A model generated the notes under the pieces. That model made no database searches. It saw only the letters and a list, made by a program, of their open reading frames with translations, and was not told the origin of the DNA. From assembly GCF_024223415.1 (NCBI RefSeq), contig NZ_CP100500.1: a stretch of 64,000 bases of DNA. One strand, 5' to 3'. The stretch's first letter is position 1; the number at the start of each line of letters is the position of its first letter. Below are positions 17,084 to 18,353 of the stretch, piece by piece. The translations under genes and the position numbers were made by a program. Source of the DNA: Escherichia coli. GTDB taxonomy: Bacteria; Pseudomonadota; Gammaproteobacteria; Enterobacterales; Enterobacteriaceae.

Positions 17084-18353
17084 TTATTTGACCCGCAGTA
17101 AATCAGAACTTCGCGTTGTATAACGTGGTGAAAGCATGGCTCGCTTCATCTGCCATTGTTGCTGGATCCCCTGTCCGGCAAAATAGAGTGTTCCTCTGCC
17201 CTCTTTAGCATTCAGTGTATCCATTACCGTCATCAATTGCTCACTCCCGGGGCGCGGTGCGTTGTCATCGAATAAATTGAGCTGCGCGACTCCCTGACTG
17301 AAGAAATCCCCCAGCATCACGCCCGCTTTTTGGTAGCGATGGCCCGCTTGCCAGATGGCATCCAGAGATCGCGTAGCGGCGTTAATGATATCCCTGCTGT
17401 CCTGAGTGGGCGTCAGCAGTTTTACCGACGCGCTATTGCCGTAATAAGGTTCATTGAGCGCAAATGGTGACGTCTTAATAAATGTGGAGATAAACCGACA
17501 ATATTGATGCTCACTGCGAAGTTTTTCCGCCGCCCGGGCAGCGTAACTACAAATGGCCTGCCGCATCGACGTATAATCCGTGATGCGTTCACCAAACGAG
17601 CGGGAACAGATAATTTCCTGCTTTGTCGGTGCAAATTCTTCCAGTTGCAAACAGGGTTCACCGCGCAGTTCACGCACCGTTCTTTCGAGCACGACATTAA
17701 AATGTTTACGGATAAACCGGATATCTGTATCCGCCAAATCGAGAACGGTTTTGATCCCCATCGCGTCCAGTTTTTTGCTGATCCGCCGTCCAATCCCCCA
17801 GACGTCATCCACGGGGAGAGCAGACATTAATTTACGCTGGCGTTCCAGATTTGATAAATCCACCACCCCCCCCCGTCTGCCGCTGCCATTTTTTTGCCGC
17901 ATGATTGGCAAGCTTAGCCAGCGTTTTGGTCTGGGCGATCCCCACACCAACAGTAAGATGGGTACGTTGTAGCACCGTTGCGCGAATTTCTCTGCCAAAG
18001 TCAGTCAGATCGCGACAATTACGCACACCTGTCAGATCGCAGAATGCCTCATCAATACTGTAAATCTCGACGCGGGGCGATAGTTCTTCCAGCGTCGACA
18101 TCACCCGATTGCTCATGTCTGCGTAAAGCTCATAATTGCTGCTAAAGCAAACCACGCCACAGCGACGAAACAGATCTTTTTGTTTGAACCAGGGATCGCC
18201 CATTTTAACGCCAAGCGCCTTTGCCTCAGCGTTTCGGGCGATAACGCAACCGTCATTATTCGATAGCACAACCACCGGTTTACCCCATAAATCAGGGCGA
18301 AACACCGTCTCACAGCTGGCATAAAACGCGTTTACATCACAGAGGGCAAACAT
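17084..18353 (-). pseudogene. umuC: DNA polymerase V catalytic subunit UmuC, interrupted by a +1 frameshift in a homopolymeric tract
   Basis: Two adjacent track ORFs (17832..18353 and 17084..17998) together reproduce K-12 UmuC (422 aa). The N-terminal frame ends ..KKWQRQTGGGGGFIKSGTPA, the C-terminal frame resumes ..GGVVDLSNLERQRK. The junction coincides with a run of 9 C on the + strand (9 G in the gene) at 17866-17874. Confidence 0.85.

What the first reader, a model, noticed from the sequence alone, without database searches (positions are those of the whole stretch)
17860..17880. umuC disrupted by a +1 frameshift in a 9-nt homopolymeric G/C tract
The UmuC reading frame breaks exactly at a run of nine C (17866-17874, G in the gene). 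The flanking translation matches K-12 UmuC on both sides, and the K-12 codons here are ACG GGG GGT GTG GTG, a shorter interrupted G run. If real, the strain lacks Pol V catalytic activity while keeping umuD and the LexA box, which would lower SOS mutagenesis. The tract could also be slippage-prone, or simply a homopolymer sequencing error.
Basis: seen in the sequence. Interest (0 to 1): 0.65.

Follow-up and report, generated by a model that had tools for sequence, protein, structure and literature searches.

The report
umuC broken at slippery G-run
This E. coli strain's error-prone repair polymerase gene umuC is cut short by one extra G in a run of eight, an ordinary slippage mutation, but the same run has knocked out umuC repeatedly in other E. 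coli lineages.

Summary
Window 17866-17874 is a run of nine C (G9 in the gene's sense) that splits umuC into a 173-aa N-terminal ORF and an out-of-frame remainder. Removing one G restores a 422-aa UmuC identical to that of the nearest strains. umuD and the LexA box are intact. The window's closest relatives, including a sister assembly otherwise identical over 12.7 kb, carry G8, made by a synonymous GGT->GGG change, so the event is G8->G9. An independent assembly of run ERR3437659 matches the window 100% over 11.2 kb, G9 included. The window's other G/C-tract frameshift (ycgH) is an inherited allele. A real, very recent slippage mutation is therefore more likely (about 0.75-0.8) than a sequencing artefact. 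Among 5,426 complete E. coli genomes with exact flanks, 4,389 have the interrupted K-12 tract with no ±1 variant, 302 have G8, 65 have G7 (including O111:H- 11128) and 3 have G9. It is a known kind of event, a homopolymer frameshift pseudogene. The population-level hotspot that removes Pol V appears undescribed in the literature searched. No evidence of adaptive switching was obtained.

The parts
17866..17874 (-). G9 homopolymer (C9 on the + strand). The in-frame ancestral state is G8, reading ACG GGG GGG GTG. The extra G causes the +1 frameshift.
   Evidence: The nearest genomes have G8.
17084..18353 (-). umuC pseudogene, 1270 nt. Removing one G gives a 422-aa UmuC identical to the intact protein of SCU-316 and NCTC9112 (WP_000457623.1).
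   Evidence: PGAP annotates the same 1270-nt form as 'frameshifted' in other genomes.
17832..18353 (-). N-terminal fragment ORF of 173 aa: native residues 1-162, including catalytic D6, D101 and E102, then 11 out-of-frame residues and a TAA stop at 17832-17834.
   Evidence: Pfam PF00817 (IMS) is recorded on this exact product.
17084..17863 (-). Remainder of UmuC in the native frame (from V164 to the stop). It holds the little-finger/IMS_C region, the beta-clamp motif QLNLF (residues 357-361) and the C-terminus. It is no longer joined to the catalytic core.
   Evidence: Gene callers give a 259-aa ORF with PF11799 IMS_C and PF13438 DUF4113 in identical loci.
18353..18772 (-). umuD, intact at 139 aa. 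Its stop overlaps the umuC start (ATGA).
   Evidence: The DNA is identical to umuD of SCU-316 and NCTC9112 (WP_000897370.1).
18792..18811 (-). LexA (SOS) box TACTGTATATAAAAACAGTA upstream of umuD.
   Evidence: Read directly from the sequence. That this is the umuDC SOS box is from my own knowledge.

Best explanation
The window comes from an E. coli lineage whose umuC carries an uninterrupted G8 run. The run was created by a synonymous GGT->GGG change in Gly161 relative to the K-12-type G3-T-G4 sequence. In this isolate, replication slippage added one G (G8->G9). Translation now stops after 173 aa (162 native residues), so the catalytic palm/fingers core is separated from the little finger, the beta-clamp-binding motif and the C-terminal region. 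No functional Pol V (UmuD'2C) can form, although umuD and the LexA box are intact. The strain should be largely non-mutable by UV and other SOS inducers. The event is very recent: there is no other change in umuDC, and sister isolates of the same clone still have G8. In principle it is reversible, because the G9 run stays slippery. Shown here: the tract, the frameshift, its G8 ancestry, its reproduction in an independent assembly, and recurrent ±1 variants in other lineages. Inferred: slippage as the mutational mechanism, and the Pol V-null phenotype.
For: Tract and broken frame. Repair by one G gives UmuC identical to SCU-316. The nearest genomes (NCTC9112, SCU-316, KV7) have G8, and umuDC is otherwise identical. 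Within the window's own clone, marked by the private FadR V2A substitution, L030 (standing for 13 of the 15 contigs) is G8 and identical to the window over 12.7 kb except for this one base. The Logan assembly of ERR3437659 (L031) is 100.000% identical over 11,203 bp, G9 included. The window is not visibly prone to homopolymer error. It differs from its relatives by only three homopolymer-length changes in 46 kb, and the ycgH C7 one is an inherited allele found in 111 index blocks. Population hotspot among 5,426 complete genomes with exact flanks: G3TG4 4,389, G8 302, G7 65, G9 3, G10 0, G3TG5 0, G3TG3 0. G7 and G9 occur on at least four umuDC haplotypes, and PGAP marks them 'frameshifted'. The exact +1 product is on 305 contigs and the -1 product on at least 1000, mostly of draft-assembly size.
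Against: No reads were available, so tract-length heterogeneity could not be examined. ERR3437659 may be the very read set behind the window. In that case one search rules out an assembler quirk but not a systematic read-level error. Thirteen of 15 contigs of the same clone are G8. The G9 carriers among complete genomes are scattered singletons. One carrier on the window's haplotype (L027) has two probable homopolymer errors of its own within 12.5 kb. Both patterns are also what homopolymer miscalls would give. The phenotype is untested.
Confidence: 0.75

Rival explanations
1. Sequencing or assembly artefact: the strain really has G8 and an intact umuC, and the ninth G is a homopolymer miscall.
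For: Long G/C homopolymers are the most error-prone context on several platforms (my own knowledge). Sister assemblies of the same clone have G8. The G9 cases in complete genomes are isolated singletons among G8 relatives. L027, a G9 carrier on the window's haplotype, shows two other likely homopolymer errors in 12.5 kb.
Against: The Logan assembly of ERR3437659 reproduces G9 and matches the window at all 11,203 bases, including A8 and T8 runs. The window's other G/C-tract frameshift (ycgH C7) is a widely inherited allele, so the window shows no general excess of homopolymer errors. The same tract carries clearly heritable ±1 variants elsewhere: G7 is shared by many O111 genomes including the reference strain 11128, and by three unrelated strains with one identical haplotype.
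Confidence: 0.17
2. Contingency locus: the G8 run is a selected, reversible ON/OFF switch for Pol V, letting a lineage alternate between SOS-mutable and non-mutable states.
For: Tract lengths G7, G8, G9 and G12 coexist, on several haplotypes. G8 and G9 coexist within one clone. The window's pseudogene shows no secondary decay. About 18-19% of uninterrupted-tract genomes are out of frame, against 0 of 4,389 interrupted ones.
Against: No reversion event was demonstrated. The uninterrupted tract is a minority allele, about 370 of the roughly 4,760 exact-flank genomes, and it arises from a single synonymous change, so nothing shows it is maintained by selection. G7 appears stably fixed in O111-type genomes, which fits plain pseudogenisation. 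Every observation is equally explained by neutral or mildly beneficial loss at a mutational hotspot.
Confidence: 0.06
3. The gene is still expressed: transcriptional slippage on the G9 run, or ribosomal frameshifting, restores some full-length UmuC, so the strain is only hypomorphic.
For: RNA polymerase slippage on runs of about nine identical bases is known in E. coli and Shigella, mainly for A/T runs (my own knowledge). The downstream frame is fully intact.
Against: There is no conserved two-frame architecture: 4,389 genomes have an interrupted tract and a single ORF. No stimulatory element was sought or seen. Any rescue would be a low-level by-product.
Confidence: 0.02

Closest known systems
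E. coli K-12 umuDC operon (DNA polymerase V, Y-family; UmuC 422 aa)
   Same: Same locus and synteny (dsbB - umuC - umuD - hlyE). Same LexA box, an intact umuD, and a UmuC sequence matching on both sides of the break. After removing one G the protein is 422 aa with D6, D101, E102 and QLNLF357-361.
   Different: K-12 has an interrupted G3-T-G4 sequence and an intact gene. The window has G9 and a split gene.
PGAP-annotated 'frameshifted' umuC pseudogenes in other E. coli: G9 in F8704-2, 6883 and RM9088; G7 in O111:H- 11128, O103 RM8385, O22:H8 RM10809-3 and O26:H11 FWSEC0001
   Same: Same tract and same type of lesion. The +1 product is the identical 173-aa peptide.
   Different: They sit on different umuDC haplotypes, 18-22 SNPs from the window's, so they are independent events. 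Most public cases are -1 (G7), not +1.
Simple-sequence-repeat (homopolymer) indel hotspots and phase-variable genes, for example poly-G tracts in Neisseria, Campylobacter and Haemophilus genes and the poly-G tract in Klebsiella rmpA (bioRxiv 10.1101/2025.09.12.675794; PMC3315296 for SSR variability in coding regions)
   Same: A G/C homopolymer of 8 or more inside an ORF, with ±1 length polymorphism between and within lineages that switches the reading frame.
   Different: No evidence here of high-frequency reversible switching or of selection to keep the repeat. The affected gene is a DNA-damage-tolerance polymerase, not a surface or virulence factor. E. coli is mismatch-repair proficient and has few such tracts.
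Repeat-mediated inactivation of mutation-rate genes, such as the 6-bp repeat hotspot in E. coli mutL (my own knowledge, not checked here)
   Same: A short repeat inside a gene that governs mutation rate makes that gene itself a mutational hotspot.
   Different: Loss of mutL raises the mutation rate (mutator). Loss of umuC lowers induced mutagenesis (antimutator for SOS mutagenesis).

Membership tests
UmuC / DNA polymerase V catalytic subunit (Y-family) | Located directly downstream of umuD with overlapping stop and start codons, behind a LexA box | tested here: met
   umuD 18353-18772(-) overlaps the umuC start. The box TACTGTATATAAAAACAGTA lies at 18792-18811.
UmuC / DNA polymerase V catalytic subunit (Y-family) | IMS polymerase core with catalytic acidic residues, plus little-finger (IMS_C) domain and beta-clamp motif | tested here: met
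PF00817 is recorded on the 173-aa product, and PF11799 and PF13438 on the 259-aa remainder. In the window these lie on two separate ORFs.
UmuC / DNA polymerase V catalytic subunit (Y-family) | Single uninterrupted ORF of about 422 aa, that is, a functional gene | tested here: not met
   The frame is broken after codon 162, with a stop at 17832-17834. It is a umuC pseudogene, not a functional member.
Frameshift pseudogene | A single indel relative to intact orthologues causes a premature stop, and the sequence is otherwise collinear | tested here: met
   One extra G against SCU-316, NCTC9112, KV7 and L030, with no other difference in umuDC.
SSR-mediated phase-variable (contingency) locus | Repeat-tract length polymorphism that changes the reading frame among related strains | tested here: met
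   G7, G8, G9 and G12 are observed. G8 and G9 both occur within one clone.
SSR-mediated phase-variable (contingency) locus | High-frequency, reversible ON/OFF switching within a clonal population | not testable with these tools
   Needs read-level tract-length distributions or colony-level assays. No reversion could be inferred without a genome phylogeny.
SSR-mediated phase-variable (contingency) locus | The repeat is conserved or maintained across the species or lineage | tested here: not met
   Only 370 exact-flank genomes carry the uninterrupted run, against 4,389 with G3TG4.
Homopolymer sequencing artefact | Not reproduced by an independent assembly or data set of the same strain | tested here: not met
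   Logan ERR3437659 contig L031 is 100% identical over 11,203 bp, G9 included. Caveat: it is unknown whether this run is independent of the window's own data.
Homopolymer sequencing artefact | Accompanied by other unexplained homopolymer indels across the assembly | tested here: not met
   Only three homopolymer differences from close relatives in 46 kb. The ycgH one is an inherited allele. The A8/A9 difference at 35300-35307 was not resolved.
Programmed frameshift / transcriptional-slippage gene | Two-frame architecture and slippery run conserved among orthologues | tested here: not met
   Most E. coli have a single ORF and an interrupted run.

The most novel reading that the evidence does not exclude
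In the roughly 7% of E. coli, largely B1/EHEC-associated lineages such as O26, O111, O121 and O103, where a synonymous change has made an uninterrupted G8 run in umuC, the run acts as a reversible switch. It turns SOS (Pol V) mutagenesis off and on, so that evolvability under DNA damage is itself phase-variable. The window's G9 would be one OFF state of that switch.
Probability: 0.08. Interest if true: 0.75.

Novelty: new member of a known kind. Interest (0 to 1): 0.38.

Why it matters
For this strain, the result predicts loss of Pol V-dependent translesion synthesis and of most UV- and SOS-induced base-substitution mutagenesis, with the rest of the SOS regulon intact. More broadly, a single synonymous change (GGT->GGG) has made umuC fragile in a subset of E. 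coli. In the complete-genome census here, 65 of the 370 uninterrupted-tract, exact-flank genomes carry the -1 frameshift and 3 carry the +1 (68 of 370, about 18%). Three more +1-frame variants (G9 with a nearby SNP, and G12) bring the total to 71 of 373, about 19%. The out-of-frame set includes many O111 genomes. By contrast, none of 4,389 genomes with the interrupted tract has a ±1 change at this site. Natural E. coli, including important EHEC lineages, may therefore differ in their capacity for stress-induced mutagenesis. That bears on studies of antibiotic-induced mutagenesis and on comparisons of mutation rates between pathotypes. It is also a practical warning that umuC status cannot be assumed from species identity.

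Tried and rejected
(1) A 61-nt query centred on the tract found nothing. The low-complexity mask left flanks shorter than the 28-nt megablast word, so I switched to queries of 94-161 nt.

(2) I looked for a 100% match to the window's umuDC among 5,426 complete genomes and found none. The source genome is not in that collection, so its sequencing platform could not be learned.

(3) L027 (GCA_900449715.1) first looked like a sister strain sharing G9. It lacks the window's two private SNPs and has its own likely homopolymer errors, so I did not count it as support.

(4) Five literature searches for any description of a umuC homopolymer frameshift in natural E. coli, and one for the run accession, found nothing relevant. 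The one candidate paper mentions only plasmid umuC SNPs.

(5) I considered programmed frameshifting or transcriptional slippage and rejected it as the primary explanation, because orthologues are single ORFs with an interrupted run.

That is rejected: K-12 is G3TG4 and the direct ancestor is G8.

Full report
**1. Observation**

The window is an E. coli chromosomal segment: modD ... fadR, nhaB, dsbB, umuC(-), umuD(-), hlyE ... minCDE ... ycgH ... phoPQ ... potABCD.

At 17866-17874 there are nine consecutive C, which is G9 in the sense of umuC on the minus strand. This is the longest homopolymer in the window. A first-order Markov model of the window expects about 0.2 G/C runs of 9 or more in 64 kb.

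The umuC reading frame breaks at the run.
- ORF 17832..18353(-) encodes 173 aa: native residues 1-162, then GGGFIKSGTPA and a stop.
- The rest of UmuC continues in another frame down to the native stop at 17084.
- Deleting one G yields a 422-aa protein identical to the intact UmuC of strain SCU-316.
- umuD (18353-18772) is intact, and the SOS box TACTGTATATAAAAACAGTA sits at 18792-18811.

One detail is wrong: K-12 MG1655 reads ACG GGT GGG GTG GTG (G3-T-G4), not ACG GGG GGT GTG GTG.

**2. What the ancestral state was**

The best matches to umuDC among 5,426 complete RefSeq E. coli genomes are 99.9% identical and one base shorter. SCU-316 and NCTC9112 read ACG GGG GGG GTG GTG, an uninterrupted in-frame G8, and have an annotated intact umuC. 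Apart from the extra G, the window's 1,689-bp umuDC is identical to theirs.

G8 differs from the K-12/O157 sequence by one synonymous change, GGT->GGG, that fuses G3 and G4. The window's event is therefore G8->G9.

**3. Real mutation or artefact?**

No reads are available, so I used three indirect tests.

(a) General quality of the window. Over 46 kb the window differs from NCTC9112, SCU-316 and KV7 by 17-27 SNPs, not counting the divergent island edge after about 46,050. It differs by three homopolymer-length changes:

| Window position | Window | Relatives | Location |
|---|---|---|---|
| 17866 | C9 | C8 in all three | umuC |
| 29517-29523 | C7 | C8 in NCTC9112 and SCU-316; KV7 matches the window | ycgH |
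| 35300-35307 | A8 | A9 in NCTC9112 and KV7 | near the 3' end of bluF |

The ycgH state splits that gene into 157 + 721 aa. It recurs exactly in many independent draft assemblies: the 157-aa fragment is indexed in 111 blocks, and the loci are 99.2-99.99% identical to the window with C7. It is an inherited allele, not an error. The window therefore shows no general excess of homopolymer errors.

(b) The window's own clone. The window has a private substitution, FadR V2A, at 14595. An exact look-up of that protein found 15 contigs.
- L030 (GCA_044079975.1), which stands for 13 of them, has an intact 422-aa umuC. It is identical to the window over 12,720 bp except for the one G.
- L031, a 46.7-kb contig from the Logan assembly of run ERR3437659, has the split umuC. 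It is 100.000% identical to the window over 11,203 bp, G9 included.

So G9 is reproduced by a separate k-mer assembly of a read set. It is restricted to one or two isolates of a clone that is otherwise G8, which makes the event very recent.

A caveat applies. I could not establish whether ERR3437659 is the same isolate, or even the same data, as the window. If it is, the result excludes an assembler quirk but not a systematic read error.

(c) Behaviour of the same tract elsewhere, covered in section 4. It shows heritable ±1 variants, so the tract is biologically unstable.

Overall I put a real mutation at about 0.75-0.8 and an artefact at 0.15-0.2.

**4. The tract is a recurrent frameshift site in the species**

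I used 94-97-nt queries so that only exact matches fall in the >=99% identity band. Counts among the 5,426 complete genomes:

| Allele | Frame | Records |
|---|---|---|
| G3TG4 (K-12 type) | in frame | 4,389 |
| G8 | in frame | 302 |
| G7 | -1 | 65 |
| G9 | +1 | 3 |
| G10 | +2 | 0 |
| G3TG5 (control) | +1 | 0 |
| G3TG3 (control) | -1 | 0 |

In addition, Z1323CEC0019 has G9 with a nearby SNP, and UTME-9 has G12, where the T that ends the run has also become G. UTME-12 gave the same one-mismatch, same-length match as UTME-9, but its sequence was not read.

Frameshifts are thus confined to the uninterrupted run: 68 of 370 against 0 of 4,389. Fisher's exact test gives p of about 8e-79, but the genomes are not phylogenetically independent, so that figure overstates the evidence.

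PGAP annotates all inspected G7, G9 and G12 genes as 'frameshifted' pseudogenes.

The out-of-frame alleles sit on several umuDC haplotypes:
- **Window haplotype:** G9 (window and L027).
- **O26/O111/O103-type haplotype:** G7 in O111:H- 11128, O103 RM8385 and O26 FWSEC0001; G9 in F8704-2, 6883 and Z1323CEC0019; G12 in UTME-9. Most members of this haplotype are G8.
- **A related haplotype** shared by O22:H8 RM10809-3, MSHS 472 and A5: G7.
- **RM9088 haplotype:** G9.

Identical G7 in many O111 genomes, and in three unrelated strains that share one haplotype, indicates inheritance. Those are real mutations.

Because the N-terminal 162 residues are invariant, each frameshift gives a unique peptide. 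The exact +1 product is on record from 305 contigs and the -1 product from at least 1000, where the counter is capped. The carrying contigs are mostly 20-200 kb, the size expected of short-read drafts.

Two caveats apply to these counts. They include the same assemblies held by several sources. A +1 slip in the interrupted allele gives the same peptide: one such case, L029, comes from a visibly error-rich assembly.

**5. Mechanism and consequence**

Inferred from established knowledge: slipped-strand mispairing during replication of a G8 run adds or removes one G.

The 173-aa product keeps the catalytic acidic residues (D6, D101, E102). It lacks the thumb and little-finger region, the beta-clamp motif QLNLF357-361 and the C-terminal region needed for the UmuD'2C complex. 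The domain split is visible as PF00817 on the first ORF and PF11799/PF13438 on the second.

The strain should therefore lack Pol V while still expressing UmuD under LexA control. That predicts greatly reduced UV/SOS-induced mutagenesis. This phenotype was not tested.

Because G9 is itself slippery, reversion to G8 is possible. No reversion was demonstrated.

**6. Comparison with known systems**

The gene is umuC by synteny, sequence and domains. It fails the 'single intact ORF' criterion, so it is a umuC pseudogene of the kind PGAP already flags in other genomes.

The behaviour resembles simple-sequence-repeat indel hotspots and phase-variable genes. Analogues found in the searches are poly-G tracts in Neisseria and Campylobacter genes, the Klebsiella rmpA poly-G tract, and the analysis of SSR variability in prokaryotic coding regions in PMC3315296.

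The defining features of a contingency locus were either untestable or not met. High-frequency reversible switching could not be tested. Maintenance of the repeat was not met, since only about 8% of the exact-flank genomes have the uninterrupted run.

Five full-text searches found no description of this umuC tract.

**7. Verdict**

As a single event it is ordinary.

The modestly new element is at the population level. A synonymous change has created a fragile G8 run, and it has repeatedly inactivated Pol V in natural E. coli, including EHEC-associated lineages.

- Novelty: new member of a known kind.
- Interest: about 0.38.
- Most novel reading not excluded: the run works as a selected, reversible switch of SOS mutability. 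Probability about 0.08; interest if true about 0.75.

Noticed in passing
window 29517-29523 (ycgH, minus strand; ORFs 29496..29969 and 27307..29472): A second G/C homopolymer polymorphism. The autotransporter gene ycgH is split into 157 + 721 aa at a C7 run. NCTC9112 and SCU-316 have C8 and an intact 887-aa ycgH, while KV7 shares C7 and is annotated 'frameshifted'. The exact 157-aa fragment recurs in 111 index blocks, so C7 is an inherited allele. A surface protein with a variable poly-C run is a more classical phase-variation candidate than umuC.
   Followed up: partly
window 35300-35307 (3' end of bluF): An A8 run in the window against A9 in NCTC9112 and KV7, about 26 nt before the annotated bluF stop. 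It would alter the BluF C-terminal tail. I did not determine which state is ancestral or whether either is an error.
   Followed up: no
window about 46050-61400, between phoQ and roxA: A phage-related island of about 15 kb encoding an integrase (60001-61251), a repressor-like protein, a primase/helicase (56208-57614), a major head protein, a head protease, a portal and a large terminase, with no tail genes noticed. This resembles a capsid-forming phage satellite (cf-PICI-like), a resemblance drawn from my own knowledge. SCU-316 and KV7 have an empty site. NCTC9112 carries a different, partly related element there.
   Followed up: partly
umuC tract in loci L001-L019 (equivalent to window 17863-17874): The uninterrupted G8 allele occurs on umuDC haplotypes 18-22 SNPs apart. 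The window's haplotype is only 4 SNPs from an O157 haplotype that still has G3TG4. Either the T->G change arose several times, possibly misalignment-templated within the G-rich sequence, or it moved by short-patch recombination.
   Followed up: no
L007 (UTME-9); UTME-12 inferred: UTME-9 has a G12 run, where the T after the run is also G, of the same length as G9-T-GG and also frameshifted. If shared, this suggests an inherited, further-extended tract.
   Followed up: no
L012 (SCU-316, NZ_CP054371.1), region equivalent to window 33986-37698: Public assembly SCU-316 has 26 single-base indels against the window within 3.7 kb, and PGAP marks iraM, ycgX, bluR and bluF as frameshifted there. This looks like a local low-quality stretch in that record, so it should not be used as a reference for this region.
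   Followed up: no
window 14595 (fadR codon 2) and 20063: Two SNPs private to the window's clone relative to NCTC9112, SCU-316, KV7 and L027. The one at 14595 changes FadR Val2 to Ala. Only 15 contigs in the large protein collection carry this exact FadR, which makes it a handy clone marker.
   Followed up: partly
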